Shown piece after piece: positions 9,601 through 63,243 of a stretch of 64,000 bases of DNA. The DNA is from Patescibacteria group bacterium (GTDB lineage: Bacteria; Patescibacteriota; Minisyncoccia; Phycocordibacterales; UBA9973). Below the pieces are notes generated by a model. That model made no database searches and was not told the DNA's origin. It saw nothing but the letters and a program-made list of their open reading frames with translations. The stretch covers positions 28,450-92,449 of the forward strand of contig JAZJXT010000002.1 of assembly GCA_040390725.1 (NCBI GenBank), in the 5' to 3' direction. The translations under genes and the position numbers were made by a program. Numbering within the stretch: the stretch's first letter is position 1; each line of letters starts with the position of its first letter.

Positions 9601-11094
9601 ATGAATAATAATTTTCAAAAACTTTTAACTTCCGGGATCATTGTTTCATTATTTTTTGTTTTTTTTGGTTTTTATAATTCCGTCAGCTCGAGCGCCATTG
9701 GACGAGGCTCGGGATATGCTTGGTCTGCCAATGATGGTGACGGCATGGGGTGGCTTTCTTTTAATTGTACTTCGGGTGGAAATTGCGGTGATACAAACTA
9801 TGAAGTTACCGCAGATAGAACCACTGGTGATATGACTGGGTATGCTTGGTCTCCTAATTACGGTTGGATTAAATTTGGAGGTTTGTCAGGCTTCCCGACG
9901 GGCGGAGGCACTACTCCTGCCAATGCAAAGCTTGATTATCATACCGGCATCATGACGGGTTGGGCTAGGTTTTGTTCGGTGGCTGCGACTCCTTCACTTT
10001 GTTCAGGATGGCCTGGAACCAATAATACTAATGGAGGATGGGATGGCTGGGTGAGTTTGAATGGTACTGGATATGGAGTCAGCAAGTCAGGTACTAATTT
10101 TACAGGTTTTGCTTGGGGTGGGGCTGATGTTGTCGGCTGGATTGATTTTTCAAATGTTTCTATACGTTATCCTCACAGTCCTGCTTCGGATCCTTTTGTT
10201 ATTTTGACTGTTAATAATCAGACGAATACTGAAGCAGACCCAGTCTTGGTTAATTCCGGAGAGCCATTTGTGTTGAGGTGGGATAGTGAAAATTCTAGTT
10301 CTTGTAATGGTGATTGGACTACTGATGCATTGACTATGCCGGCAGGGTCAGCGATATTGTCAGTAATTACAGACAAGCCTTTACCGAAAACTTACACCAT
10401 TTCTTGTGTTGGACAATCTGGAACCACTGATAGTGTTGTCAATGTCAGTATTGTGCCTTCTGACGTTGTGAATGCTGTTCCAAAACTTAATTTTTACTCT
10501 TCTCCTAATAATTACGTTCTTCTTCCAAATACTAAAACGACCTTGAAGTGGAATTCAAACGTTGCTATGGCTTGTAAGGCAGATAATGCTATTCAAAATA
10601 TTCGATCATCTTCCTCATGGTCTGGTAATGTAGGTGATTTATCTGCTTCGAATTCTTTCCAAAATTCTCTTGTAGTTGATGTTCCAGACAATACTCCATC
10701 TACCGAATATGGCATAGTTTGTACTGATGAAAGTGGTGCAGAATTTAAAAAGCAGGTTTATGTTTCTCAACAATTCCCTCCTGAAGGATTTAATATCGGA
10801 TATGATGCAGTGGATCCAACATCACATACCACCATGCTTCGCTTGAAAGATATCTTTAATCTTACTAGCAGTGATTGTACTACTACGGCATCCGTAGTAG
10901 GTACTGGATGGGATGGCACCATAAAGAGTGATGGTTCTGAGGTAAAGACTGTGACTGTTCCTGGAAGTGGCGCGACTTATACAGCTACATGTACTGGGTT
11001 GAATTCCGGGCTTCCTGTCATTAGATTTATTTCCTTGAAACAAGACAGTACCGCCGGCTCAACACAAATATCACCTTCATATATTGAACATTAA
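9601..11094 (+). CDS. secreted/membrane-anchored repeat protein (497 aa) with GYAWS...GWI.F repeats
   Basis: Signal anchor LLTSGIIVSLFFVFFGFY. Repeated GYAWSANDGDGMGWLSF / GYAWSPNYGWIKFGG / GFAWGGADVVGWIDFS units. Cys-rich C-terminal half. Confidence 0.55.
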   Translation: MNNNFQKLLTSGIIVSLFFVFFGFYNSVSSSAIGRGSGYAWSANDGDGMGWLSFNCTSGGNCGDTNYEVTADRTTGDMTGYAWSPNYGWIKFGGLSGFPTGGGTTPANAKLDYHTGIMTGWARFCSVAATPSLCSGWPGTNNTNGGWDGWVSLNGTGYGVSKSGTNFTGFAWGGADVVGWIDFSNVSIRYPHSPASDPFVILTVNNQTNTEADPVLVNSGEPFVLRWDSENSSSCNGDWTTDALTMPAGSAILSVITDKPLPKTYTISCVGQSGTTDSVVNVSIVPSDVVNAVPKLNFYSSPNNYVLLPNTKTTLKWNSNVAMACKADNAIQNIRSSSSWSGNVGDLSASNSFQNSLVVDVPDNTPSTEYGIVCTDESGAEFKKQVYVSQQFPPEGFNIGYDAVDPTSHTTMLRLKDIFNLTSSDCTTTASVVGTGWDGTIKSDGSEVKTVTVPGSGATYTATCTGLNSGLPVIRFISLKQDSTAGSTQISPSYIEH

Positions 11095-11186
11095 AAATAG
11101 CATGGTATACTTATTATTATAAAAATAAAATTATTATCAAAAAATTATTAGCCCCGACGCAAGTCGATTAAAATATTAAAAAAATT

Positions 11187-14100
11187 ATGAGTCACAAAAT
11201 AAAAACAGCTTTAAAATCAATATTCGTTCTCTCTATGGTCGTGTTGTCAGCGCATGCTTTTGCAGTATGGACACCGCCACCAGCAGGGATACCTCCAGCC
11301 AACAATACTACGGCTCCTGTGAATGTGGGTTCTGTGACTCAATATAAAACCGGTGGGCTCGTCGTCGGAGGTTTTCGTTCTACTGGGCCTGCATTTTTTG
11401 ATGATACTGTGCAATTCAAACAGGTGACGACTTTGCCTGATTGTACTGCGACTGATTCTAGCGGTAATTTTATATACAAAGGGGCACAAATATACTACAA
11501 CGGCAGTATGGAATTTTGTAATGGAGTTACTTGGTCAGTAGTAGGCACCAAAGATTGGCTGACTACAGCAATGGGCAATATTTACTATACAAATGCCGGC
11601 AATGTAGGTATCGGTACGCAAACTCCAGCTACCAAACTCGACGTAGTGGGAACCATTACATCAACTGGCTTGAATGTCGTAGGCAATACGGCGACAACTG
11701 GTTTGACTACGGGTGCAACTGGGCTCACAGTTAGCGGACCACTTTCTATTCCTGACGGTGCATCAGCAGGGAAGGTTTTGACTTCTGATGCTGCTGGTAC
11801 TGCAACATGGCAAGGCTTAATTGCATCTTGGAGTCTTTCTGGCTCTAGTCTTTTCCCTACAGATTTTGCAAATGACAATGTCGGCATCGGCACTGATAGT
11901 CCTGCTGAACGCTTGCAAGTCAGTGGAGGTAATATTTTGACAGATAATAAATGGGCATTTGAAGCTAAAAATGCTTCGGGTGTAAAAGAGGCTTGGATGT
12001 GGCCTAGATATACTGATAATGTAATGTACACTAATTATGGTGCAAATGGTTGGAATATTCGCGACAACGGTGGAGCTCCTGTTATGTTTATGGACAAGAA
12101 TGATAATGTTGGCTTAGGTAATATTCTTCCAACTAATAAACTTTCTGTGACCGGGAATGCGGACTTCTCGGGTAATGTTGGGATAGGAACAAAAACTCCA
12201 AGCGCTCAGCTTTCTGTACTTGGTAATATTGCGATAGTAAGAGATCCAGGTTTTACAAATTACTCCCCAGGATCATCTTTGTCTCTTGAGTCTTGGAGTG
12301 ATGGAACTTCCACTAGTCATGATGATGATGTAGGGGCACAAGTTAGCGCTGCTGATTGGCTGGCTGGTACTGATGGTGCTCCGGGCACAGATAAAATTGT
12401 AAAGTATGCTTGTCCTTCCGGTAGTGGTGGTAGTACTTATCATAATGATTATTACAGAATTGACCTCGGTTCAGGAGCTTATGATTATCGAAAAATCAGT
12501 GATGTTTTTTGTGTTGCCGGTACAGATAAATTCTCTTTGAGAACCGACAGAGGCAATTTGCAATTTTTAGATACTAATTCTAATCCTAAATTTATTATGA
12601 CTCAGTCAGGTAATGTCGGTATCGGCGTCACTGCTCCTGCTGTAAAGCTTGACGTAAACGGCGCAGTAAAATTCGGCGATGATACTACGATTGTTTGTGA
12701 TACCACTCATCCGCAAAACGCAGGAATACAGAGATATGACAAAGTAGATAATATAATGAAAGCTTGTAACGGCACCACATGGATAGCTGTCGGAGCAAAT
12801 GCTGCACCTTCATCTTCACTCTGGTCTGCAGGTACGGGTGATGATGTTTTCAAAACACTAAATACTGGCAATACTGGTATCGGAACCCAAACTCCAGCAG
12901 CAAAATTGCATTTGAGCGGAGGTAATTTCTTGATGGATAATAGCGCGACTTTGCAAGCTTACAATCACGCTGTGCCGGCGATGATTAATGATTGGATGTG
13001 GCCTAGATACCATGATCCTGTTTCCGGTACTGACATCATGTACACTAATTTTGATGTAAATGGATGGAGCATTCGCAACAATACTGCGCACCCTGTGATG
13101 TTTATGAAAGACAATGGCAATGTCGGTATCAACACAATAAACCCGGTAAACAAGCTTTCAGTTAACGGAGATGTTAATATCGGTGATTCTATAATTCCTG
13201 GAAAGCTCGGTATAAATACCACGACTCCTACTTCTTCTTTGGATGTAAATGGAGACATCACTGCTTCTAGGGGTGTTTCACTTGTGAATAGTTCAGCGCT
13301 TAGTTTTTATTCTGGCACAAAGGGAACAAGTGTATATGAGCTTCCATATTTGCCTGCGACGGGCAATGATACTTGTGGCACTTTAAATTCTGATACTGAT
13401 GGTGATGGCAGTGTTGTTCCAAACAACGATCGTGTCATGTGTGATGGTTTAATTTCAGGACCTAGATGTTATGATCGTGTTCATCAAAGCACTGGAGATG
13501 TGGGCGCTTATGTGACATGTGTGGCTGATGCGGGTACTTATACTATTGCAAACAATACTAATAATTTACAATTTTCAAATGGCACAGGCACTAATGCGGG
13601 TGTCAGAGTCACTTTAGATAAAGACGGCAAGATGGGCGTGGGTACGACGATTCCACAGGCAAAACTCGACGTCAACGGCGGAATTAAATTCGGTTTAGAT
13701 GGCTTGGCTACGGATACTATTTGTACTGTTGCCGGTGTGCAGAGGTACAATGGTGCTATGCAATATTGTGATGGAACAAATTGGGTTCCTGTCGGGTCTC
13801 CTATGTTTTGGAATGTTATCGGTACGGGTTCTGACCTCGCTACTATAAATACTGGTAATGTCGGCATCGGTACGGGCACGAATCCTCCATTAGCAAAGCT
13901 TGATGTAAATGGTGCAGTTAAATTCGGTGATCAAACTGTTGTAAAAGATATTACTACTCCAAATTCAAATGTGCCGGGCTTTCCAAATGTCACTTGTAAT
14001 GTAGCCGGTACCCAGAGATACAATTCTGTTTCTGCAAAGATGGAATCTTGCGATGGTCATTATTGGTCAAGCGTTGGAGATAAATCTCTTTGGAATGCTG

Positions 14101-17100
14101 ACACGACTGGTGTCATGGTTTCTTTGGCTACTCCTGGACAAAAAGTCGGTATCGGCACAGCTACTCCTCATTCTGCTCTCGAAGTTGTCGGTAATTTACA
14201 AATCACAAGCCCTATCAGTGGTCCTAGTTCCAACAGTATAATTTTAGGAAGTGGAAAGTATGACAATTATGGTGGATGGCCTCTTATTCCAATGCTGACA
14301 ACTTCTGGTGATCCATTACCAGCAGACCCTGGATCAAGTGCGGATACTTGTGACAGTAATGAAAATGCTGTATATAGTTGTCCGGATAGTGTTACAAAGA
14401 ATTGTACAGATGTTACTTCGGGTACATTTAAGTCTTCCACTAGTAGTGCTCCTAGGGACGCATGGTATAAGCGAGATGTGTCTTGTGTTTCTCCTGATGA
14501 GCCTTTATATCAAATACAAAATAATTCTGGGGATTTGAAATTCATAAATAATAATGGTCCGCAAGTTACAGTTAATCAAAATGGCAATGTCGGCATAGGC
14601 ACTACCACTGCTCCGGGTGCAAAACTCGATGTAAACGGTGGCATCAAATTCGGCCTTGATGGTTTGGCTACGGATACTACTTGTACTGTTGCCGGTGTGC
14701 AGAGATATAATCCTGCTAATTCAAATGGAATGCAATTTTGTGATGGCTCACACTGGAAAGATGTCGGTTCTCCTGCTACATGGAATGAAGTTGCTGGTGT
14801 GCTTTCTCCATTTACTCTGACAGATAAAATCAGTATTGGTAATGTTGCTCCTTTTGAAATAGATCCAGGCAATGTTTCTTCAAATTCCTCAAATGCTGGA
14901 TTCCTTCGTTTTGGTGATAATTCTGGATGGAAATTCCATTTTGGAAGAGCTAAAGAATCCACTTCTTCCGGTTTCAATACTGACACTACCGGTTCTATTA
15001 TGACGATGCAAGACAATGGCAATGTGGGTATTGGTACTACATCTCCGAAGGCAAAATTTGAAGTTGCAGGAAATAGTGGAGATGACTTAATTAACATTAG
15101 AAATCTTTCTACCAGTCAGCCAAATGCAACTTCTTGGGCATTGCGTCCGGTTACAAATAGTAAGACTGCTTATGCTACAGATTTGCAATTCTTCGAACAC
15201 GGACTAGACGGAGCTAGAGTTACCTTCCAAGGTAATGGTGGAAATGTAGGTATCGGTACGACAAATCCTACCGCTAGGCTCGATGTTGCCGGAGCAGTTA
15301 AATTCGGTGATGAGCACGTAGTTACTACTTGTGATTCTACTACGAATGGTACACAAAGGTATAATAGTTCTGGAGTAATGCAATGGTGTAATGGTGTAAA
15401 CTGGCAGAGTTATGGTAGTGGTGTGGGCTGGATAGCTAATGGCAATGATATTTATAATGGTAACAATGCTGGAAATGTAGGGATAGGCACCGGAGCAACT
15501 CCTGTAAAAAATAAACTTTTTGTTAATGGTGATGTTGGTACTTCTGCTTCTATTATTAGTGGCGGTATGATGTATTTGCAAGGCAATGATTATGAACATT
15601 TAGGTAATTTGAAATATGTCAGCCAAGGAATCTTTCTCGGAGGAGATGGATTGAGTCATGGAGATATTTCATGGCTTCCAAATTCCAATACCCTTAACCT
15701 AGGTACAGGTGATGATCCTACAAAGGCAGCTAATTATCCTGATCAATATGGCCCTGTAAATCTTTCCTTGGGTGGACAAATCAGAATCGGTGGCTCTACT
15801 GCGGTTTTTGATTACAATGGACACAGTGTTACTACTGTCCCTCATCCTCCTACGAAGGGGCAAGTTTTGACAGCGTTAGATTCTACCGGTCTTGCTTCTT
15901 GGCAAGCACCCCAAGCTGGCCCTTGGTCAGTTGTAGGTGATGATATTTCAAATTCAAATACCGGAATGGTTAAAGTGAATGGTTCAATAGCTACAATATT
16001 GGGATTAAATAATAATGCGAACATCAGCCAGTATGATTTGGGAGCAAACAAGATTGGTGCCGCTACTTCTATTTATTCTTATGGACGCATTTGTGCCGGA
16101 AATAATTGGGGAACTTGTGACAGTGCTACTCAGTCCGGTGTAGTTATAGAATCTTCCGGTCAAGGTAAATTTGGAGCCGTTGATATTTCTGGGAATGGGC
16201 CGTCATACTTTGCTGCCGGGAATCTCGGAGTAGGCACAAATTCTCCTAACGCTAAACTTGATGTGAGCGGTGATGTGCAGGTTTCAGATGGTGTTTCTGT
16301 GGTAGATAGCTCAGCGGTTAGTTTTTATTCCGGTGATAAACATATCAACTCTCATACGGATTGGACTAATAAAAGTTCAAATAGTGCGACGCGTACCCCT
16401 GATACTTGTCCTGGTGCTGATACAAAACTTAAATTTGAGTGTATAGGTTCTAATACTGTGAATTCTTGTACAGACACCGCTGATTATCAGGAATATACTT
16501 CCGGACAACTTACCTTTGATGGTTGGGCAACTCGCACAGTTTCTTGTGTGGCTACTACCGGTGTTTATTCTGTAAAGAATAATAATAGCACTTTGCAATT
16601 CTTGAATGATAAAGGCACTGCTAAGTTAACTTTGGATCAAAATGGCAATTTGGGTGTAGGTGGCAATGTTAGTCTAGGGGCTGGCGGTAGTCTTCTTCAG
16701 ACTTCACCATTATACTTACTCGGTGATGCTAATGGATATACTGCTCTTAATTTAGACCCTAGCCAGTACGCCAGCCAGGGTATTCGTTTCGGAGGAGATG
16801 GAAAATCTCACGGAGACATGGCATGGATTCCAGGCTTAAATACATTTTATCTTGGAACAGGAGATAATCCGCAAGATATGCTCACAGGTGTTCCAAATAG
16901 ATACGGTCCGGCTAATCTTACTTTGGCGGGTGCTCTATCTATCGGCGGGCAAATTACAATTGCCGGCGGTTCCCCTGGTGCCGGAAAAGTTTTGACATCA
17001 GACAGTACAGGTAAGGCGACTTGGCAACAGCTCCCTCCTTCATCTGTATCTCCTTGGCTAGTAGGAACGAATCCAAACACACATAATACTACTATTAGTA

Positions 17101-24069: not shown

Positions 24070-25218
24070 ATGAATAGTATAAAAAGTTTAAAAAACATAA
24101 AAGGTAAAAAAGTTCTTGTGAGAGTTGATTTCAATGTGCCTGTTTTGAACGGTAAGGTGGAAGACGATTTCCGAATACAAAAAGCATTGCCAACAATTAA
24201 ATTTTTACAGAAAAAAGGCGCGAAAGTTATTTTAATAACGCACTTGGGTAAAGGCGGGGAAACTCTTTTGCCGGTGGAAAAAGTTTTGAATAAATATGTA
24301 AAAGCTGTTTTTGTGGCTGATATTGTGGGAGAAAAAGCAGAAAATGCTGTGGATGCTATGAAAAATGGTGATGTAATTTTGTTAGAAAATTTACGTAATA
24401 ATGACGGCGAGAAAAATTGTGATAAAACTTTTGCGAAAAGTTTGGCAAAATTCGGGGATATTTATGTGAATGAAGCCTTTCCTGTGTCACACAGAGCTGA
24501 TGCTTCTATTGTTTTGTTGCCGAAGCTTTTGCCGGCGTATGCGGGTTTGCAGTTAGAAAATGAAGTGAAAAATCTTTCGAAAGTTTCCAAGAGCGTAAAG
24601 CATCCATTTCTTTTTATTTTAGGCGGTGCGAAATTTTCTACCAAGATGCCTTTGATTAAAAAATATTTAAAAACTGCGGACAATATTTTTGTTGGCGGAG
24701 CATTAGCGAATGATTTTTTGAAAGCGAAGGGTTATGAAGTTGGCAAATCTTTGACGGACAATGGTGATTTTGGAATTAAGAAATTTATAAATAATAAAAA
24801 ACTTATTTTACCGGTGGATGCTGTAGTCACCTCACCCCAGCCCTCTCCTTATAAAGGAGAGGGGGAATTCGTAAATAAAAAAGCAAGTGAAGTAAAAAAA
24901 GATGAAATTATTTTAGATGTCGGCAGTGAATCAGTAAAAAATTTAGCACCGATTATTAAAAAAGCAAAAATGATTCTCTGGAATGGGCCTTTGGGAAAAT
25001 ATGAAGAAAAAGAATGCAGAGCGACAAAAGAAGTTTTGAAAATGGTGATGAATTCAAAAGCTCAAGTGACTATAGGTGGCGGAGACATAGTCGCTGTTTT
25101 ATCTCAAATGAAAATTAATACTGACAAAAGAAAAAATTTATTTGTATCTACTGGCGGAGGAGCAACTCTCGACTTTCTTGCTAATGGCACCTTGCCAGGA
25201 ATTAAAGCGTTAAAATAA
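24070..25218 (+). CDS. pgk: phosphoglycerate kinase
   Basis: VLVRVDFNVP and ILWNGPLG motifs. Start moved to the ATG at 24070 (MNSIKSLKNIKGKKVLVRVDFNVP). Contains the in-frame palindromic insert at 24828-24865. Confidence 0.9.
   Translation: MNSIKSLKNIKGKKVLVRVDFNVPVLNGKVEDDFRIQKALPTIKFLQKKGAKVILITHLGKGGETLLPVEKVLNKYVKAVFVADIVGEKAENAVDAMKNGDVILLENLRNNDGEKNCDKTFAKSLAKFGDIYVNEAFPVSHRADASIVLLPKLLPAYAGLQLENEVKNLSKVSKSVKHPFLFILGGAKFSTKMPLIKKYLKTADNIFVGGALANDFLKAKGYEVGKSLTDNGDFGIKKFINNKKLILPVDAVVTSPQPSPYKGEGEFVNKKASEVKKDEIILDVGSESVKNLAPIIKKAKMILWNGPLGKYEEKECRATKEVLKMVMNSKAQVTIGGGDIVAVLSQMKINTDKRKNLFVSTGGGATLDFLANGTLPGIKALK
24828..24865 (+). repeat. RPE-like palindromic element, copy 1 (in-frame within pgk; encodes TSPQPSPYKGEGE)
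   Basis: cacctcaccccagccctctccttataaaggagaggggg; core is a perfect 10-bp inverted repeat ccctctcctt/aaggagaggg. Identical reverse-complement copy at 62919-62955 and a 2-mismatch copy at 57294-57329. Confidence 0.6.
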
Positions 25219-26978: not shown

Positions 26979-28727
26979 ATGCAACAAAGTGAGTTATTGA
27001 TGAAATTATTAGAAAAAAGAGGCATAACTATCCCTGCCGAAATTGAGAAATTTTTAAACTCCAGCTACGAGAGCGATATGCACGACCCTTTTTTAATGCG
27101 CGATATGGAAAAAGCTTGCGTGCGGATTTTTGAGGCGATGGAAGCCAAAGAAAAAATACTGGTTTATGCGGATTATGATTGCGATGGCATTCCGGGCGCG
27201 GTTATTTTAAATGATTTTTTTAATAAATTAAATTATCAAAACTTTGAGGTGTATATTCCGCAGAGGAATTCCGAGGGATATGGTTTGAATTTGGAAGCGG
27301 TAAAAAAAATGGATGAGGATAGGGTGAAACTTTTGATTACTATTGATTTAGGTATCACAGCCGTGGCGGAAATAGCTCAAGCGGAAGTGTATGGCATAGA
27401 CGTGATAATTACTGACCACCATATTCCTCATGAAGTATTGCCGAGGGCTTATGCTATTTTGAATCCAAAAGTTGATAACTATCCGGAGAAAATGTTGTGC
27501 GGGTCTGGGGTTGTTTTTAAATTAGTGCAAGGGTTTTTGAAAAAGTATGGCGATTACTATCGCGGGGGCGGAGTTTATAATTTTTTGCCTGCGGAACTCG
27601 CCTCCGCTTCGCTACAGCTCAAACAGTCCTCGTCTGCAAAATTACAAACTCCGCCCCCGCGAGACTGGGAGAAATGGCTTCTCGATATGGCAGGGCTCGC
27701 TACACTTTCTGATATGGTGCCGTTATTGGGTGAGAACAGGGCGATTGCGAGTTTTGGAATAAAAGTTTTTAGGAAATCTCCGCGTCCGGGTTTGCAAAAA
27801 CTTTTAGCGAAAATGAATATAGAGCAGAAATATATTTCGGAAGACGATATAGGTTTTATGGTAACGCCACGACTCAATGCAGCATCAAGAATGGATGATC
27901 CGCGTCGAGCTTTTGAATTACTGGCTACGCAAGATGAAACGGAAGCCGGAGTATTGGCAAACCATTTGACGAAAATAAATGATGACAGGAAAAAAATCGT
28001 TGCGGGGATAATGAAAGATGTAAATAAAAAATTCGACAAAAGAGAAATAAAAAATGTGATAGTGATAGGGCATCCGGAGTGGCGGGTCGGGGTTCTCGGT
28101 TTGGTTGCGGGGAAAATTTGTGATGAACATAAAAAGCCGGTTTTCGTGTGGGGGAAAGATGAAAATGATTGCATTAAAGGCTCGTGTCGTTCTGACGGTT
28201 CTGTATCTGTGGTGGAACTTATGACGGAAACAAAAGAATATTTCTTGGATTTCGGCGGACACGAAGGCGCAGGAGGTTTTACTGTGCACAGTGAAAAAAT
28301 ACATTTCTTGGAAGAAAATTTATCTCAATCTTTTCAAAAAATTATAGAGAAAACTATAGTTAAAGAAAAAGTATCGCTTCCAGGCTTTGATGTTAAATTA
28401 AATTTAGGTGATGTAAATATGAAAAATTGGAAAGAGATAGAAAAAATGGCGCCATTTGGTTGTGAAAATCCAAAACCAGTTTTTCTTTTTGAAAATGTAA
28501 AAATAGAAAAATTAAAAAAATTTGGAAAAAACAATTCACAAGAACATTTGGAGATTATTTTTTCTGATGCTACAGGTAAAGCTAAAGCGATTGCATTTTT
28601 CTCCGGCTTGGAATCTTTCAAAAAATCATTAGCCGAAAATTTAAATGTAAACTTATTGGCAACTTTTGATTTATCCCGTTTCCTAAGGAGAGAAGAGCTA
28701 AGATTAAGAATTGTTGATATTTTTTAA
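26979..28727 (+). CDS. recJ: single-stranded-DNA-specific exonuclease RecJ
   Basis: DHH motifs (YADYDCDGI, ITDHH) and DHHA1 region (GGHEGAGG). Contains a 102-bp in-frame palindromic insert at 27561-27662. Confidence 0.9.
   Translation: MQQSELLMKLLEKRGITIPAEIEKFLNSSYESDMHDPFLMRDMEKACVRIFEAMEAKEKILVYADYDCDGIPGAVILNDFFNKLNYQNFEVYIPQRNSEGYGLNLEAVKKMDEDRVKLLITIDLGITAVAEIAQAEVYGIDVIITDHHIPHEVLPRAYAILNPKVDNYPEKMLCGSGVVFKLVQGFLKKYGDYYRGGGVYNFLPAELASASLQLKQSSSAKLQTPPPRDWEKWLLDMAGLATLSDMVPLLGENRAIASFGIKVFRKSPRPGLQKLLAKMNIEQKYISEDDIGFMVTPRLNAASRMDDPRRAFELLATQDETEAGVLANHLTKINDDRKKIVAGIMKDVNKKFDKREIKNVIVIGHPEWRVGVLGLVAGKICDEHKKPVFVWGKDENDCIKGSCRSDGSVSVVELMTETKEYFLDFGGHEGAGGFTVHSEKIHFLEENLSQSFQKIIEKTIVKEKVSLPGFDVKLNLGDVNMKNWKEIEKMAPFGCENPKPVFLFENVKIEKLKKFGKNNSQEHLEIIFSDATGKAKAIAFFSGLESFKKSLAENLNVNLLATFDLSRFLRREELRLRIVDIF
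27561..27662 (+). repeat. 102-bp element with 20-bp terminal inverted repeats inserted in-frame in recJ
   Basis: cgcgggggcggagtttataa (27561-27580) vs ttacaaactccgcccccgcg (27643-27662): 19/20 complementary. 102 bp = 34 codons, encoding RGGGVYNFLPAELASASLQLKQSSSAKLQTPPPR. Confidence 0.55.
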
Positions 28728-54757: not shown

Positions 54758-55834
54758 ATGCATGAGAATGGAAAAATGACTACTGTTTCTGTCAGCACCA
54801 ACACCATGATCCGGGCTGTTTTGGTCGGATTGGGATTTTTTCTCATATACTTATTGAGAGATTTGGTTTTGGTTATTTTGACTTCTATCGTCATAGCTTC
54901 ATTTGTGGAGTCTGCTGTTCCAAAGTTTAAAAAAATAGGATTAGGGCGCGTATCCGGAGTTTTTCTTTTGTATCTTATTTCTCTTTTGATTTTGGCTGCC
55001 CTGTTTTATCTTTTTGCCCCGCTTCTCATCACTGAGTTATATAATTTCTCAACATTGCTTTCGTCTTATCTTCCAGATTCCAATTTGCTGAATTTTTTCC
55101 AAAATGACGCTTTTTCCGGGGCTAAAAATATAGTGACGAGTCTTTCACATAATTTTTCTTTAGAGACATTATTGGCGACTTCAAAAGCCTTTGTCGCAAA
55201 CTTGGCCGGTGGATTTTTCCAAACTCTTTCTTCTGCCTTTGGAAGTATTTTTAATGTGACGATGATTATTGTTATTTCTTTTTATCTTTCGATTCAAGAA
55301 AAGGGTATAGAAAACTTTTTGCATATTGTTGTGCCACCAAAACATGAAAATTATGCCGTGGATTTATGGGAACGTTCTCGAAGAAAAATCGCGCTCTGGA
55401 TAAAAGGACAAATGTTATTGGGTCTTCTTATCGCTATTTTAATATATTTATTGCTTTCACTTTTAGGCATATCATACGCGCTTTTGTTGGCTTTACTTAC
55501 CGGCATGATGGAGCTCGTGCCTTATGGGATGCTGATAGCCATGGTCCCGGCGGTCGGCCTCGGATATTTATCAGGAGGATTTACGGGTTCATTTATGGTT
55601 TTAGGCGCATACCTTATTATTCATCAATTTGAAGTTTATTTATTATCTCCTTTGATTGTCAGAAAGGTGACAGGGCTTTCTCCGCTCGTGGTTATACTTG
55701 CGGTGCTCATTGGTTTTGACTTGGCGGGGTTTTGGGGGCTTATTCTTGCTATTCCTTCCGCTGTAGTTATTATGGAATTTTTAAATGATGTTGAAAAAGA
55801 CAAACTTTTTGCCCGTATTAGCCATGAAAAATAG
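54758..55834 (+). CDS. AI-2E family transporter (PerM/UPF0118)
   Basis: Eight predicted TMs with an AI-2E-like pattern. Start uncertain (ATG 54758 or 54776; the ORF track uses TTG 54740). Confidence 0.7.
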   Translation: MHENGKMTTVSVSTNTMIRAVLVGLGFFLIYLLRDLVLVILTSIVIASFVESAVPKFKKIGLGRVSGVFLLYLISLLILAALFYLFAPLLITELYNFSTLLSSYLPDSNLLNFFQNDAFSGAKNIVTSLSHNFSLETLLATSKAFVANLAGGFFQTLSSAFGSIFNVTMIIVISFYLSIQEKGIENFLHIVVPPKHENYAVDLWERSRRKIALWIKGQMLLGLLIAILIYLLLSLLGISYALLLALLTGMMELVPYGMLIAMVPAVGLGYLSGGFTGSFMVLGAYLIIHQFEVYLLSPLIVRKVTGLSPLVVILAVLIGFDLAGFWGLILAIPSAVVIMEFLNDVEKDKLFARISHEK

Positions 55835-57290
55835 TTTTTACCTTACAACCACATTGCCTTATGTAAATGCAGATCTGCATTTAGGGCATGCGCTTGAATT
55901 TGTGCGTGCAGATGTCATCGTGAGATATAAAAAACTCGCAGGCTTTGATGTGTATTTTAATACCGGCACGGATGAACACGGTATGAAGATATTTGAAAAG
56001 GCTAAAGAGAAAAATATTTCTGCACAAGAATTTGTAGATCAAAGTTTTTTAAATTTTAAAGAATCGGTTAAAATTTTCGGCATGGTTGATGATTTGCATT
56101 ATATACGCACTACTGATAAAAAACATGAAAACATTGCGAAAGATTTTTGGATGAAATGTTTTAACAATGGGTATATTTACAAGAAAAATTATGAGACGAA
56201 ATATTGCGTGGGCTGTGAATCAGAAAAGACTGATTCTGACCTCGTAAATGGCGAATGCCCTGATCATCCAGGTAAAAAGCTCGAAATAATCCAAGAAGAA
56301 AATTACTTTTTTAAGTATAGTGAATTTACTGATAAGTTAAATAAATTTTATGCTGAGCGTCCTGATTTTGTCGTGCCGGATTTTCGTTTTAATGAAATAA
56401 AAGCTTTTGTCGAAAGAGGATTGCAGGATTTTTCTATTTCAAGATTGAAAACAAAAATGCCTTGGGGGATAGAAGTGCCGAACGATAGTGACCATGTGAT
56501 GTATGTGTGGTTCGATGCTTTGACGAATTATATCTCGACTTTGGCAGATGATGGAGTAGATACTCTCGATGCACTGGTTGCTAGTGAAAAATTCCAAAAA
56601 TATTGGGTTAATGGAAATCCGACGCAATATTGCGGGAAAGATAATTTACGTTTTCAGTCTGCGATGTGGCAAGCGATGCTCATGTCTGTAAATATTCCTA
56701 ATTCGCATCAGATAGTTATCAATGGATTTATTACCGGTGACGGGGGAGTAAAAATGTCTAAAAGCTTGGGTAATGTTGTAGACCCCAAAGATATTGTAGC
56801 CGAATATGGCATTGATGCTTTGCGATACTTTTTACTCTCAGAAGTTTCTTCTTTTGAAGATTCGCCTTTTACTATCGAGCGTTTTAAAGAATGTTATAAT
56901 GCCAAACTCGCGAATGGTTTGGGTAATTTAACGAGCAGAATTATGAAAATGGCAGAGACTAATTTAATTTCACCAGTTTCCATAGATGATAATTTTTATC
57001 CGAAGTTAGACGTAGGAGTTGATTTAGAAATGTTTGACTTATCCAATGCTATGAAAAAAATTTGGGCGTACATGAGTACTATGGATGGTCACATACAAGA
57101 CAAACAACCTTTTAAATTAATTAAAACAGATAAAGAAAACGGAGTTAAAGAGATTACAATACTTACACAAATGCTTTTTTGTGTTGCCAAAGAGCTTGCT
57201 TCTTTTATGCCTGAAGCTTCGGAAAAAATATTAAAATTGATTAAAGAAAATAAGAAGCCTGAGCAGCCTTTATTTCAGAGGAAAGATTAA
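55824..57290 (+). CDS. metG: methionyl-tRNA synthetase (short form)
   Basis: ATG at 55824 (MKNSFYLTTTLPYVNADLHLGHA; HLGH); zinc knuckle CVGCE; KMSKSLGN. Confidence 0.9.
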   Translation: MKNSFYLTTTLPYVNADLHLGHALEFVRADVIVRYKKLAGFDVYFNTGTDEHGMKIFEKAKEKNISAQEFVDQSFLNFKESVKIFGMVDDLHYIRTTDKKHENIAKDFWMKCFNNGYIYKKNYETKYCVGCESEKTDSDLVNGECPDHPGKKLEIIQEENYFFKYSEFTDKLNKFYAERPDFVVPDFRFNEIKAFVERGLQDFSISRLKTKMPWGIEVPNDSDHVMYVWFDALTNYISTLADDGVDTLDALVASEKFQKYWVNGNPTQYCGKDNLRFQSAMWQAMLMSVNIPNSHQIVINGFITGDGGVKMSKSLGNVVDPKDIVAEYGIDALRYFLLSEVSSFEDSPFTIERFKECYNAKLANGLGNLTSRIMKMAETNLISPVSIDDNFYPKLDVGVDLEMFDLSNAMKKIWAYMSTMDGHIQDKQPFKLIKTDKENGVKEITILTQMLFCVAKELASFMPEASEKILKLIKENKKPEQPLFQRKD

Positions 57291-57293
57291 GAA

Positions 57294-57329
57294 CCTCACC
57301 CCAACCCTCTCCTTATTAAGGAGAGGGGG
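57294..57329 (+). repeat. RPE-like palindromic element, copy 2 (intergenic, metG-tatD)
   Basis: cctcaccccaaccctctccttattaaggagaggggg; 2 mismatches to copies 1 and 3; perfect 10-bp stem. Confidence 0.55.
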
Positions 57330-57343
57330 AGGAAGAAAAGATT

Positions 57344-58222
57344 ATGACACCAAAATACATCGACATACATTCACATACGAATTTCAAAGCCTTTGATGAA
57401 GATAGGGAGGCAGTACTTCAGCGTGCTTTGGACACTGAGACTTGGGTTATAAATGTCGGCACGCAGATAGACACTTCTAGGTTTGCAGTAGAAATGGCAA
57501 ACAAATATAGTGAAGGCATTTATGCAATTATTGGGCTTCACCCTATACATACCGGCGCATCGTATCACGATACAAAAGAGCTCGGTGAAGAAGGGAAAGC
57601 ATTTACTTCGCGCGGGGAAGTTTTTGAAAAAGAAAAATATCGGGAACTTTTACGCGACCCGAAAGTCGTCGGCATCGGCGAATGCGGACTTGATTATTAC
57701 AGATGCACTACGGAAACAATCTCAAAACAAAAACAAGCATTCATAGAGCAGATAGAACTTGCGAATGAATTTAATAAACCTTTGATGTTGCATATTCGAA
57801 ATAATCCAAACGTCCACCCCGCCATAAATGGCACCCCTCAAGAGGGGAATTTAAATGCAAGTGCTTATTTTGATGCATTGGAAATTTTAAAAGCTCATGC
57901 GAAAGTAAAAGGGGACGTGCATTTCTTTGCTGGAAGCTGGGAAGAGGCAAAAGGTTTTATTGAACTTGGTTTTACATTGTCTTTTACCGGAGTGATAACA
58001 TTTACTCATGATTATGACGAAGTCGTCCGCAATACTCCACTCGATATGATAATGTCCGAGACTGATTCACCGTACATTACCCCTGTGCCGTATCGAGGCA
58101 AGCGCAATGAACCTGTGTATGTTTCAGAAGTTGTAAAAAAAATTGCGGAAATAAAAGGTTTACCTGAAAATGAAGTATCTAAGGCTATCATTGCAAACGC
58201 CAAAAGGGTATTCGGGATTTAA
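57344..58222 (+). CDS. tatD: TatD-family metal-dependent hydrolase/DNase
   Basis: IDIHSHT, GECGLDY and MSETDSPY motifs. Confidence 0.85.
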   Translation: MTPKYIDIHSHTNFKAFDEDREAVLQRALDTETWVINVGTQIDTSRFAVEMANKYSEGIYAIIGLHPIHTGASYHDTKELGEEGKAFTSRGEVFEKEKYRELLRDPKVVGIGECGLDYYRCTTETISKQKQAFIEQIELANEFNKPLMLHIRNNPNVHPAINGTPQEGNLNASAYFDALEILKAHAKVKGDVHFFAGSWEEAKGFIELGFTLSFTGVITFTHDYDEVVRNTPLDMIMSETDSPYITPVPYRGKRNEPVYVSEVVKKIAEIKGLPENEVSKAIIANAKRVFGI

Positions 58223-62694: not shown

Positions 62695-63243
62695 TTACTT
62701 TTTTTCATAAACCACAAAAGAATACGGCAAGGGGTTTTTGTCGTCGGGTTGGTGATTTTCGCGCCAGGTTTCTTTCCAGATGTTTTTATCTATTGCAGGG
62801 AAAAACACATCGGCAGTTTTGTCTTCGGCACTTATTTCTGTGATGTCTAGGTGCGTCGCCACTGTATTTATGGCTTGTCGGTAAATATCCGCTCCGCCTA
62901 TTATGTAAACTTTTTCTTCCCCCTCTCCTTTATAAGGAGAGGGCTGGGGTGAGGTGCTTACTTTTTTAACTGCCTCCTCTAAAGAATGCACTACGTCTAT
63001 GCCGAGGCGTAGATAGCTTTTATCTCGTGTGATTATTATATTTCTGCGGGATGGCAAAGGTCGTCCAAGTTCGCCAGAAGGGCTTTTGCCCAATGATTCA
63101 AAAGTTTTCCTGCCCATTATTACCGGATGCCCCAAAGTTTTATCTCGAAAATATTTTTGATCTGCCGGCATTTTCCAAACTAAATCATTACCCTTGCCGA
63201 GCTCATTATTTTTTCCTATGGCTGCTATTAGTGAAATTATCAT
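62695..63243 (-). CDS. folA: dihydrofolate reductase
   Basis: MIISLIAAIGKNNELGKGNDLVWKMPADQKYFRDKTLGHPVIMGRKTF. Contains the in-frame palindromic insert (STSPQPSPYKGEGEE). Confidence 0.9.
   Translation of the reverse strand: MIISLIAAIGKNNELGKGNDLVWKMPADQKYFRDKTLGHPVIMGRKTFESLGKSPSGELGRPLPSRRNIIITRDKSYLRLGIDVVHSLEEAVKKVSTSPQPSPYKGEGEEKVYIIGGADIYRQAINTVATHLDITEISAEDKTADVFFPAIDKNIWKETWRENHQPDDKNPLPYSFVVYEKK
62919..62955 (-). repeat. RPE-like palindromic element, copy 3 (in-frame within folA)
   Basis: Reverse complement is cctcaccccagccctctccttataaaggagagggg, identical to the pgk copy; same orientation relative to its host gene. Confidence 0.6.

What the first reader, a model, noticed from the sequence alone, without database searches (positions are those of the whole stretch)
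57294..57329. Intergenic copy of the palindromic element between metG and tatD
The same element (2 substitutions, stem still perfect) lies 4 nt after the metG stop and 15 nt before the tatD start. Here it could act as an RNA stem-loop (terminator or attenuator, or mRNA stabiliser). This shows the family populates both coding and non-coding DNA, as RPEs and REP/MITE-like elements do. The substitutions (g>a, a>t) preserve the palindrome.
Basis: partly seen in the sequence, partly recalled or inferred. Interest (0 to 1): 0.55.

Follow-up and report, generated by a model that had tools for sequence, protein, structure and literature searches.

The report
Solo BoxC-type triplex repeat insertion
The small palindrome between metG and tatD is a stray copy of a widespread bacterial repeat (BoxC/PIT "triplex motif"). 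It is not a gene-control signal, but following it shows that this repeat forms the two ends of tiny cassettes that carry a DUF559 nuclease gene, which may explain how the repeat spreads.

Summary
The 36-nt palindrome at 57294-57329 is real and not chance: the window holds 3 copies where 0 are expected. It is an AT-shifted variant of the BoxC / PIT / "TM" intrastrand-triplex repeat known from E. coli and cyanobacteria. Its parts are a pyrimidine tail, a 2-nt linker and a 10-bp hairpin. I find it in many phyla.

Here it lies in a 53-nt lineage-specific insertion: 40 of 63 related metG|tatD junctions are compact (-4 to +22 nt). There is no U-tract and no terminator call. Sister copies with the same stem sit in frame inside PGK and DHFR. 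A terminator or attenuator role is therefore not supported. The two substitutions lie in the linker and the loop, so they say nothing about compensation.

Unexpectedly, 17 related loci hold, directly upstream of tatD, a cassette of about 450 nt or its remnant. The cassette is a DUF559 (Vsr-like) endonuclease gene bracketed by inverted copies of this kind of motif. Of 26 DUF559 genes examined, 22 are flanked this way, against 0 of 125 control intervals. Tail and stem co-vary as a mirror, which is the triplex rule.

Best reading: a solo, non-autonomous end module of DUF559 selfish cassettes. I found no paper describing the DUF559 link. If real, it makes the origin of BoxC/PIT repeats testable.

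The parts
57291..57343 (+). 53-nt insertion between the metG stop and the tatD start. It holds the whole repeat unit plus a purine-rich 3' extension.
   Evidence: Closest relatives have nothing here, e.g. L294 '...aaggat TAA ATGACACCAAAATA'. 40 of 63 related junctions have -4 to +22 nt.
57293..57302 (+). Tail module ACCTCACCCC. On the complementary G-rich strand it reads GGGGTGAGGT, a mirror of the purine arm (third-strand module of the triplex motif).
   Evidence: Read directly: all 10 positions give allowed purine-motif triplets (G*G-C, A*A-T, T*A-T). The tail was conserved although not specified in the collection scans.
57303..57304 (+). 2-nt linker AA.
57305..57314 (+). Pyrimidine arm CCCTCTCCTT of the hairpin.
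57315..57317 (+). Loop ATT.
57318..57327 (+). Purine arm AAGGAGAGGG of the hairpin.
   Evidence: RNA fold, 10-bp stem; -24.1 kcal/mol for the 91-nt context, z = -2.95
57328..57343 (+). Purine-rich 3' extension GGAGGAAGAAAAGATT. It resembles the 3' flank of the DHFR copy.
   Evidence: pair I1: 57282-57337 against 62911-62966, 56 nt, 88%
55785..57290 (+). metG (methionyl-tRNA synthetase), the upstream neighbour. Its stop codon abuts the insertion.
57344..58222 (+). tatD (TatD-family hydrolase), the downstream neighbour.
24829..24867 (+). Sister copy, 39 nt, in frame in phosphoglycerate kinase; encodes TSPQPSPYKGEGE.
62917..62955 (-). Sister copy, 39 nt, in frame in dihydrofolate reductase; encodes TSPQPSPYKGEGE in a surface loop.
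57812..57850 (+). Diverged composite relative, 39 nt, in frame inside tatD (VHPAINGTPQEGN). It reads tail CCACCCC, mini-hairpin GCCATAAATGGC, then ACCCCTCaaGAGGGG.
   Evidence: absent from 279-aa TatD orthologues; same architecture in L218 and L241

Best explanation
The element is a solo, non-autonomous copy of a selfish repeat family, the BoxC / PIT / 'TM' intrastrand-triplex motif, here in an AT-shifted variant. It landed in the only place at this locus where an insertion is tolerated: the 0-3 nt between the metG stop and the tatD start. The same module (tail, linker, polypyrimidine/polypurine hairpin) forms the two inverted ends of cassettes of about 450 nt whose only gene is a DUF559 (Vsr-like, ExDGxxH...D) endonuclease. 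I infer that such a nuclease, encoded elsewhere in the genome, recognises the folded single-stranded motif and mobilises short solo units in trans, much as RAYT transposases are thought to mobilise REP/REPIN elements. At this site the copy is transcribed as part of a metG-tatD message and forms a 10-bp hairpin that does not terminate transcription. It has no evolved host function. Shown: family identity, the insertion status, the DUF559-motif association, and the tail/stem covariation. Inferred: that DUF559 is the mobilising enzyme, that the copy arrived as a solo unit, and that it is neutral for expression.
For: Identity: the published TM-ECO pattern (Holder et al. 2015, PMC4666352) hits exactly the three copies, with one mismatch per module, and nothing else in the window.

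Insertion: 40 of 63 related metG|tatD junctions are compact, including the closest relatives in the set.

DUF559 link at this junction: 11 junctions, plus 6 loci where metG runs off the contig, carry a DUF559 ORF directly upstream of tatD (Pfam PF04480, E 1e-31 to 1e-33; PDB 3hrl). Complete cassettes are bracketed by inverted motifs. L299/L301 carry the same variant with the same left junction, TAAGAACCTCACCCC.

DUF559 link in general: 22 of 26 distinct DUF559 ORFs have a hairpin with a triplex-compatible tail on both sides, against 0 of 125 control intervals. In an independent, protein-selected IMG/VR sample, 7 of 12 stand-alone DUF559 ORFs have polypyrimidine/polypurine hairpins on both sides and 6 have the same arm on both sides, against 0 of 320 controls. 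In E. coli K-12 the single DUF559 gene ycjD has a degenerate hairpin at its stop and a BoxC 168 nt downstream.

Covariation: 15 distinct purine arms each have a mirrored tail.

Nuclease intact: residues D, ExDG, H, D, R, R and N are invariant.

Arrival as a solo: the near-identical sister copies lie inside PGK and DHFR, where a whole cassette could never have been tolerated. The DHFR and intergenic copies are also alike beyond the core (56 nt, 88%).
Against: No DUF559 gene lies in the 64-kb window, and the rest of the genome could not be read. None of 120 IMG/VR loci chosen for the motif has DUF559 nearby. No clear target-site duplication or exact unit ends could be defined. In the broad IMG/VR sample most DUF559 flanks lack the tail. 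In one MAG contig (L144) the DUF559 flank is a different variant from the solos beside it. DUF559 has no demonstrated activity. The direction of the association is not settled: the nuclease may move the motif, or the cassettes may prefer to settle at such motifs. The DHFR copy is shared at the same site by distant orthologues and decays by deletion, so some copies are old rather than recently mobile.
Confidence: 0.45

Rival explanations
1. Relic of a resident cassette. A complete DUF559 cassette once sat at this metG|tatD junction, and the nuclease gene and right end were later deleted. What remains is the left end plus its purine-rich leader, fused to the tatD start codon.
For: The junction is a hot spot: 17 of the 21 DUF559 hits in 822 kb of TatD loci are at this junction. 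A decay series exists at the same site: a truncated ORF with the right end kept (L314/L315) and a 62-nt double-tailed solo (L283). The left junction TAAGAACCTCACCCC is identical to that of the L299 cassette.
Against: The sister copies in PGK and DHFR cannot be cassette relics, yet they have the same architecture and nearly the same sequence. The 5' AAGAACC also occurs in DHFR copies (L181, P0130), so the shared junction reflects the element's own end. No trace of DUF559 coding sequence remains. The closest relatives in the set have empty sites.
Confidence: 0.25
2. Host regulatory RNA hairpin. The stem-loop acts as a terminator or attenuator between metG and tatD, or protects the metG mRNA 3' end.
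For: The hairpin is stable in the transcript (10-bp stem; -24.1 kcal/mol for 91 nt, z = -2.95). It lies exactly between two co-directional genes.
Against: No T/U run follows the stem (GGAGGAAGAAAAGATT), and the scan finds 0 terminator-like sites. No Rfam family matches above noise. It is not conserved: 40 of 63 relatives have abutting or overlapping genes. Sister copies with the same stem occur inside essential ORFs. PIT elements showed no promoter or terminator activity in E. coli (reported in PMC4666352).
Confidence: 0.07
3. A structure-driven repeat with no dedicated enzyme. The triplex/hairpin motif spreads or persists through replication slippage, recombination or repair at non-B DNA, perhaps kept as a source of genome plasticity as Holder et al. 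proposed. On this view DUF559 genes merely tend to sit next to such motifs.
For: Mirror covariation of tail and stem shows selection on a fold rather than on a protein-coding or duplex-binding signal. Most solos have no DUF559 nearby. TM sites are hot spots of variation in E. coli (PMC4666352; the fabI-ycjD interval is contiguous in only 3346 of 5426 genomes).
Against: It does not explain why both ends of nearly every small DUF559 gene carry matching inverted copies (22 of 26 against 0 of 125; 6 of 12 against 0 of 320). It does not explain why closely related DUF559 genes share a flank variant (partial). It also does not explain how a roughly 39-nt unit of fixed sequence appears de novo inside many unrelated genes.
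Confidence: 0.12
4. Chance palindrome, or an assembly or sequencing artefact.
For: None beyond its short length.
Against: 0 matches in 100 shuffles against 3 observed. The ORFs stay intact around the coding copies. The same unit is present in more than 100 independent assemblies from different projects.
Confidence: 0.01

Closest known systems
BoxC / PIT (potential intrastrand triplex) / TM-ECO motifs of E. coli and other bacteria (Holder et al. 2015, PMC4666352, and the earlier work cited there)
   Same: Same three-module architecture and nearly the same sequence: tail CCTCACCCC, short linker, CCCTCTCC...GGAGAGGG hairpin. Every triplet is compatible with the purine motif. Dispersed copies occur singly or as double-tailed palindromes.
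   Different: The top of the stem is A/T (CCCTCTCCTT/AAGGAGAGGG), so the strict consensus is missed by one base in each module. The host is a 37% GC Patescibacteria genome. Two of the three copies here, and many in other CPR genomes, are in frame inside genes, whereas the E. coli copies are reported as always intergenic. The link to DUF559 is not in that paper, which states that no mobility function was found.
REP / REPIN elements and their RAYT (Y1) transposases
   Same: Short palindromic repeats dispersed in many solo copies. One or a few copies of a small enzyme gene are flanked by inverted copies of the same repeat. The proposed logic is mobilisation in trans of a folded single-stranded hairpin.
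   Different: There is no GTAG/CGTC tag. The associated protein is a PD-(D/E)XK, Vsr-like DUF559 nuclease, not a Y1 transposase. The element has a third (mirror) module. The Y1-transposase insertions found at this same junction in relatives carry unrelated hairpins (TTACACAGGGGAACCCTGTGTA).
Rickettsia palindromic elements (RPEs) (from my own knowledge: Ogata et al. 2000)
   Same: Palindromic selfish DNA that inserts in frame into housekeeping genes and adds a tolerated surface peptide. It also occurs in intergenic DNA.
   Different: RPEs are about 100-150 bp, restricted to Rickettsia and unrelated in sequence. This unit is about 39 nt, occurs across phyla, and has a candidate partner gene.
Vsr-like / EDxHD homing endonucleases (I-Bth0305I, PDB 3r3p; grouped with VSR/DUF559 in PMC3424549)
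   Same: The cassette protein belongs to the same PD-(D/E)XK clade and keeps an ExDGxxH...D motif. The cassettes recur at one conserved gene junction, which resembles homing.
   Different: The known examples sit in group I introns or inteins of phage genes. The ones here are free-standing, flanked by hairpin repeats, and accompanied by solo hairpins.
Intrinsic (Rho-independent) terminators
   Same: A G+C-rich hairpin just after a stop codon.
   Different: No U-tract. Not conserved at the site. The same hairpin lies within ORFs.

Membership tests
BoxC / PIT / TM-ECO intrastrand triplex motif | Three modules on one strand: pyrimidine arm, loop of 3-6 nt, purine arm, short linker, then a second purine-rich block | tested here: met
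   The minus strand reads CCCTCTCCTT-AAT-AAGGAGAGGG-TT-GGGGTGAGGT.
BoxC / PIT / TM-ECO intrastrand triplex motif | Match to the published consensus CCCTCNCCC N3-6 GGGNGAGGG N3 GGGNGAGGG | tested here: inconclusive
   With an N5 loop all three copies match with exactly 3 mismatches, one per module, and nothing else in the window matches. The paper allows one mismatched pair, so I file this as a variant and not a strict member.
BoxC / PIT / TM-ECO intrastrand triplex motif | The third block mirrors the purine arm, so that all triplets are G*G-C, A*A-T or T*A-T | tested here: met
   10 of 10 positions, read directly. Across 44 cassette ends with 15 different arms the tail co-varies.
BoxC / PIT / TM-ECO intrastrand triplex motif | Forms an intrastrand triplex as isolated single-stranded DNA | not testable with these tools
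   ViennaRNA models only Watson-Crick hairpins (-11.2 kcal/mol DNA hairpin). CD/NMR data exist only for the E. coli sequence (PMC4666352).
BoxC / PIT / TM-ECO intrastrand triplex motif | Intergenic location (reported as 'always' in E. coli K-12) | tested here: met
   This copy is intergenic. Two of the three copies in the window are coding, so the rule does not hold for the family in this genome.
Intrinsic terminator | G+C-rich stem-loop | tested here: met
Intrinsic terminator | Run of T/U immediately after the stem | tested here: not met
   The stem is followed by GGAGGAAGAAAAGATT, and the scan finds 0 terminator-like sites in 56800-57800.
REP/REPIN-RAYT | Conserved GTAG or CGTC tag at one end of the palindrome (PMC3733652) | tested here: not met
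   Neither tag flanks the hairpin on either strand (read directly).
REP/REPIN-RAYT | Cognate Y1 (IS200-like) transposase flanked by the repeat | tested here: not met
   The genes flanked by this motif are DUF559. The Y1 transposases found at the same junction carry different hairpins.
MITE | Terminal inverted repeats, a target-site duplication, and an autonomous partner with the same ends | tested here: inconclusive
   A candidate partner with the same ends exists (DUF559 cassettes). The solo is a single end, not two fused ends. Direct repeats at the borders (AAAGATTA here, AAAAAGT in DHFR) are A-rich and inexact, so the target-site duplication is not established.
Rickettsia palindromic elements | In-frame insertion into protein-coding genes that keep their function | tested here: met
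   For the sister copies: PGK and DHFR keep full Pfam matches. The DHFR model has pLDDT 90, with the insert as a low-confidence loop. Other CPR genes also carry in-frame copies.
Rickettsia palindromic elements | Length of 100-150 bp and sequence families specific to Rickettsia | tested here: not met
   The unit is about 39 nt and occurs in many phyla. The RPE lengths are from my own knowledge.
DUF559 cassette with hairpin ends (architecture described here) | DUF559 ORF within about 150 nt of the motif | tested here: not met
   A six-frame HMM search finds no DUF559 in the window, so the copy is a solo.

The most novel reading that the evidence does not exclude
BoxC/PIT 'triplex motifs', whose origin and means of spread have stayed unexplained since the 1990s, are the terminal modules and non-autonomous derivatives of a very widespread family of minimal selfish cassettes of about 450 bp. 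The only gene of these cassettes is a DUF559 (Vsr-like PD-(D/E)XK) nuclease that recognises a folded hairpin-plus-mirror-tail (triplex) DNA structure. This would be a REPIN-RAYT-like partnership built on a different enzyme and a different DNA fold. In Patescibacteria these units colonise core genes in frame.
Probability: 0.4. Interest if true: 0.8.

Novelty: new variant of a known kind. Interest (0 to 1): 0.6.

Why it matters
On its own the intergenic copy is ordinary: one more copy of a known repeat, with no sign of a regulatory role. It matters for where it leads.

First, it extends the BoxC/PIT/TM motif to Patescibacteria. There, unlike in E. coli, the motif sits in frame inside essential genes: PGK and DHFR here, and IF-2, PNPase, ValRS, UvrA and ATP synthase gamma in other genomes. 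This is a second clear case of the phenomenon known from Rickettsia palindromic elements. It is also a caution for protein annotation and alignment in CPR genomes.

Second, the orthologous junction in relatives shows what this motif is attached to: small DUF559 nuclease genes bracketed by matching inverted copies, with tail and stem co-varying by the triplex rule. This gives a candidate enzyme for a repeat family for which "no mobility function" had been found. It also gives a candidate substrate for a large domain family of unknown function, which includes E. coli YcjD. Both ideas can be tested directly in E. coli.

Tried and rejected
- **Rfam:** only noise around the site (microRNA models, E >= 0.17).
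- **Terminator and promoter scans:** no terminator, and promoter-like hits no more frequent than in shuffles.
- **'The purine arm gives tatD a Shine-Dalgarno site':** rejected. Only 6 of 51 long ORFs in the window have any SD-like 4-mer upstream, and many have TATAAT just before the ATG, so this genome hardly uses SD.
- **Locating the source contig:** the exact TatD protein (also as P0001) is not on record, so the rest of the 98.9-kb contig could not be searched for DUF559.
- **Target-site duplication and exact ends:** relatives are only 68-77% identical around the junction, and the short A-rich direct repeats at the borders are inexact.
- **Co-phylogeny of DUF559 proteins and flank variants:** only partial. 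Two tight clades are uniform in flank variant, but the common variant occurs in several clades.
- **Clean presence/absence of ycjD+BoxC in E. coli:** the interval is polymorphic (3346 of 5426 genomes contiguous). In O157:H7 the difference is a TetR/RND island that starts about 40 nt before the BoxC, not a precise excision.
- **PGK homologues:** none in the fetched loci. Against T. maritima PGK the element-coded residues align with a variable loop with a net gain of only 3 residues, so the PGK 'insertion' is less clear-cut than the DHFR one.
- **Literature:** no paper in the searchable library links DUF559 or YcjD with BoxC/PIT/triplex repeats, or describes in-frame palindromic elements in CPR. 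Subscription journals are not covered.

Full report
**Observation**

The 36-mer CCTCACCCCAACCCTCTCCTTATTAAGGAGAGGGGG lies at 57294-57329. Upstream is a 501-aa ORF ending in TAA at 57288-57290, a class I methionyl-tRNA synthetase (Pfam tRNA-synt_1g, E 1e-93). Downstream, from 57344, is a TatD-family hydrolase (E 2e-70). A search allowing 3 mismatches finds two more copies, at 24830-24865 (+) and 62919-62954 (-). Each differs from the intergenic copy at the same two positions and they are identical to each other. None is found in 100 dinucleotide-preserving shuffles.

The two differences are G>A at 57304 and A>T at 57317. The stem is 57305-57314 paired with 57318-57327 (10 bp, loop ATT). The first change is therefore in a 2-nt linker and the second in the loop. 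Neither tests compensation. A>T also creates TAT TAA, a stop in the reading frame that both coding copies use.

**Anatomy**

The unit has three modules, not two:
- a pyrimidine tail ACCTCACCCC (57293-57302);
- a 2-nt linker;
- the hairpin CCCTCTCCTT-ATT-AAGGAGAGGG.

On the complementary strand this reads pyrimidine arm, loop, purine arm AAGGAGAGGG, TT, GGGGTGAGGT. The last block is the mirror image of the purine arm, with T or A opposite A and G opposite G. Read directly, all ten positions give triplets allowed in a purine-motif triple helix.

**Identity**

A full-text search for the core sequence led to Holder et al. 2015 (PMC4666352). That paper describes the E. coli BoxC / PIT / 'TM-ECO' motif, CCCTCNCCC N3-6 GGGNGAGGG N3 GGGNGAGGG. 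According to the paper:
- E. coli K-12 has 23 copies, always intergenic;
- earlier work found no promoter or terminator activity;
- the motif is associated with local genome variability;
- no transposase or integrase is associated with it.

With an N5 loop, that pattern matches exactly the three copies in the window, each with three mismatches (one per module), and nothing else. The element is thus an AT-shifted variant of a known family. The top of the stem is T·A/T·A instead of C·G.

**Distribution**

All of them had the unspecified 'CCT' before CACCCC.

The AT-shifted form (CCCCNNCCCTCTCCTT N1-7 AAGGAGAGGG) hit at least 120 stretches in species-representative genomes, again nearly all with the unspecified ACCTCA. 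The hosts include:
- Nostoc, Rivularia and Scytonema;
- many Patescibacteria (Moran-, Nomura-, Falkow-, Uhr-, Doudna-, Komeili- and Magasanik-bacteria, Gracilibacteria, Saccharibacteria);
- Gastranaerophilales, Ignavibacteria, Nitrospirota and Capsulimonadaceae;
- gamma- and delta-proteobacteria.

The window itself is from a Patescibacteria MAG. Its TatD and DHFR are 100% identical to NCBI proteins named 'Patescibacteria group bacterium', on a 98.9-kb contig. The nearest homologues are Nomurabacteria/Paceibacterota.

**The site is an insertion**

I fetched 80 metagenomic loci encoding TatD relatives (69-79% identity). In 63 of them metG is visible directly upstream. The junctions fall into four classes:

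| Junction content | Loci |
|---|---|
| Compact, -4 to +22 nt (typically TAAnATG or an overlap) | 40 |
| DUF559 ORF | 11 |
| IS200-like Y1 transposase (Pfam Y1_Tnp), with its own unrelated hairpins | 7 |
| Other inserts | 5 |

The relative with the most similar MetRS and an empty site (L294, 70%) reads '...aaggat TAA ATGACACCAAAATA'. The window reads '...aaagat TAA [53 nt] ATGACACCAAAATA'. So the 53 nt at 57291-57343 are a lineage-specific insertion into an otherwise contiguous, probably translationally coupled, gene pair.

**What occupies the same junction elsewhere**

In L299/L301 the junction reads as follows (DUF559 Pfam PF04480, E 1e-33):

- TAA-GAACCTCACCCCGACCCCTCTCCTTGTTAAGGAGAGGGG
- an A-rich leader
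- a 115-aa DUF559 ORF
- CCCTCTCCTTAATAAGGAGAGGGCAGGGTGAGGTTCTTA
- ATG of tatD

This is a nuclease gene bracketed by two inverted copies of the very motif found in the window, with an identical left junction. Other loci carry the same arrangement with other motif variants, for example TACCCCCACCC-NN-CCCTCCCCCT...AGGGGGAGG. In each case both ends of a cassette carry the same kind of variant.

The ORF matches PDB 3hrl ('endonuclease-like protein') and the NCBIfam model for E. coli YcjD. It keeps invariant D, ExDG, H, D, R, R and N residues. This is the Vsr-like clade, which also contains the homing endonuclease I-Bth0305I (PMC3424549).

**Strength of the association**

- With a home-made DUF559 HMM on six-frame translations, I found 21 hits in the TatD loci, which were chosen without regard to the motif. 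I found 10 hits in the 120 motif-chosen genome loci.
- Of 26 distinct ORFs, 22 have, within 150 nt on both sides, a polypyrimidine/polypurine hairpin with a triplex-compatible tail (at least 7 of 8 triplets). 25 have one on at least one side.
- Random intervals in the same loci gave 0 of 125 on both sides and 8 of 125 on one side.
- The hosts include Moranbacteria, Ignavibacteria, Kapaibacteria, Gastranaerophilales, Chloroflexi and Gammaproteobacteria.
- Across 44 cassette ends there are 15 different purine arms, each followed by its own mirror tail: 8.9 of 9 compatible with its own arm against 5.6 of 9 with other arms. The own set was pre-filtered at 8 or more, so this illustrates covariation rather than testing it.
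- In a second sample chosen only by protein similarity (IMG/VR), 7 of 12 small stand-alone DUF559 ORFs with enough flank have such hairpins on both sides. 6 have the same arm on both sides. Controls gave 0 of 320. The mirror tail is present in only 2-3 of 19.
- The general rule is therefore 'small DUF559 gene between matching Y/R hairpins'. The tailed (BoxC/PIT) form is one large subset.
- In E. coli K-12 the only DUF559 gene, ycjD, runs into a degenerate hairpin at its stop codon. It has TM-ECO no. 9 of Holder's table 168 nt downstream. With 23 sites in 4.6 Mb, my estimate of the chance expectation for that proximity is about 0.004.
- 17 of the 21 DUF559 hits in the TatD loci lie at the metG|tatD junction, so this junction is a real hot spot.

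**Coding copies**

Both sister copies are 39 nt, in the same frame, and encode TSPQPSPYKGEGE, inside PGK and DHFR ORFs that keep full-length Pfam matches.

In DHFR the peptide lies between helix 88-97 and strand 111-115. An AlphaFold2 model has mean pLDDT 90 overall but about 60 in the block that holds the insert, which marks it as a loop excursion.

Among 120 Nomurabacteria-type DHFRs:
- about 20 carry an element-encoded peptide at this same loop;
- most carry none (161-165 aa);
- others carry short remnants or unrelated palindromic inserts.

A DNA alignment of a carrier and a short form shows an 18-nt in-frame deletion of the hairpin, with a decayed tail left behind. A DHFR orthologue only 55% identical (L181) has the element at exactly the same codon position. 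Its tail and stem are fully conserved while the flanks are 65% identical. Some coding copies are therefore old and decay by deletion.

In other CPR MAGs the element is in frame in IF-2, PNPase, ValRS, UvrA, an RluA-type pseudouridine synthase, ATP synthase gamma (in the opposite-strand frame) and an M16 peptidase. Three different reading frames are used: TSPQPSPYKGEG, PHPNPLLIKERG and PPLLNKERVGVR. What is conserved is the DNA, not a peptide. By my count, about 20 of 33 copies in CPR-named loci lie in stop-free frames of at least 150 aa.

**Function tests at this site**

- No T-run follows the stem and no terminator is called.
- No Rfam family matches.
- The idea that the purine arm donates a Shine-Dalgarno site to tatD fails, because this genome rarely has SD-like sequences (6 of 51 ORFs).
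- The element is not conserved at the junction.
- I conclude it has no evolved regulatory role. Its likely effect is neutral or mildly harmful, since it separates two formerly abutting genes by a hairpin.

**Explanation and rivals**

I commit to the reading that the copy is a solo, non-autonomous end module of DUF559 cassettes that arrived as a short unit (0.45). The main reason is that its near-identical sisters lie inside essential genes, where a whole cassette could never have been. The DHFR and intergenic copies are also alike beyond the core (56 nt at 88%).

The rivals are:
- a relic of a cassette that once sat at this hot-spot junction (0.25);
- structure-driven spread with no dedicated enzyme (0.12);
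- a regulatory hairpin (0.07);
- chance or artefact (0.01).

Caveats:
- That DUF559 is the mobilising enzyme is an inference from architecture.
- No target-site duplication could be established.

**Novelty**

The motif family is known. New here are the AT-shifted variant, its presence in Patescibacteria and its in-frame colonisation of core genes. The DUF559 association would be the important part. I found no paper that makes it, and Holder et al. state that no mobility function was found. The searchable library omits most subscription journals, so priority cannot be excluded.

Noticed in passing
window 57812-57850 (inside tatD): A 39-nt in-frame insert, GTCCACCCCGCCATAAATGGCACCCCTCAAGAGGGGAAT (VHPAINGTPQEGN), is absent from 279-aa TatD orthologues. 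It looks like a composite relative of the same family: tail CCACCCC, a mini-hairpin, then a short CCCCTC/GAGGGG hairpin. L241's TatD has the same insert with a different mini-hairpin sequence that still pairs (GGCTTATCAGCC). L218 (a Gloeobacter-like genome) has the long form CTCACCCC-GCCCTAACGGGC-ACCCCTCTCCTTAGTAAGGAGAGGGG.
   Followed up: partly
L251, L253, L254, L288, L293, L300, L303 (metG|tatD junction): The same junction holds a different mobile element in 7 relatives. It is a 234-aa IS200-like Y1 transposase (Pfam Y1_Tnp, E 1e-7) flanked by TTACACAGGGGAACCCTGTGTA-type hairpins, which makes it RAYT/REP-like. In L251, L253 and L254 an extra membrane-protein ORF is also present.
   Followed up: partly
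DHFR loop, window 62917-62955 and homologues P0122-P0240: This DHFR loop is hypervariable in Nomurabacteria-type genomes. Besides the triplex element it carries other inserts that look palindromic at the DNA level, such as LPAGKAGT and NSHATMDGARHD. The motif MDGARHD also appears as an insert in a TatD homologue (P0005). Several families of in-frame elements therefore seem to circulate in these genomes.
   Followed up: no
window-wide, upstream of long ORFs (e.g. 17464, 44316, 54758, 58267): Shine-Dalgarno-like sequences are rare (6 of 51 ORFs). TATAAT-like boxes often sit 5-12 nt before the ATG, which suggests leaderless or very short-leader mRNAs.
   Followed up: partly
L265, L261, L319, L305, L283 (right ends of cassettes): The right end of the TACCCCCACCC-type cassettes runs into GGGGGTATAAT a few bases before the tatD ATG, a possible outward-facing -10 box. 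In L319 and L305 the cassette end also seems to supply a new ATG and the first residues of TatD.
   Followed up: no
L321 / L322 (E. coli fabI-ycjD-sapF): The ycjD + BoxC interval is contiguous in 3346 of 5426 complete E. coli genomes. In O157:H7 homology stops about 40 nt before the BoxC, and a TetR/RND-efflux island follows.
   Followed up: partly
window 62695-63243 (-), DHFR residues 52-59: A second, 8-residue insertion (GKSPSGEL) relative to homologues and to E. coli FolA, with lower model confidence (block pLDDT 75). No obvious palindrome.
   Followed up: no
window about 9900-16900: Multiple diverged direct repeats of 55-104 nt (families D1-D7), spaced about 1 kb apart, inside very long ORFs (e.g. 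2061 aa from 11187). This is probably a large repetitive surface protein.
   Followed up: no
window 27560-27662: A 25-nt inverted repeat, 96% complementary (TCGCGGGGGCGGAGTTTATAATTTT / AAAATTACAAACTCCGCCCCCGCGA), with arms 53 nt apart. It is G+C-rich for this genome.
   Followed up: no
L161 (Patescibacteria LeuRS locus): The leucyl-tRNA synthetase reading frame contains the element (PHPSPLLGKERG). A second copy (LTPTLSLVRRG) lies just upstream, next to a run of N, so two copies sit close together at one gene's 5' end.
   Followed up: no
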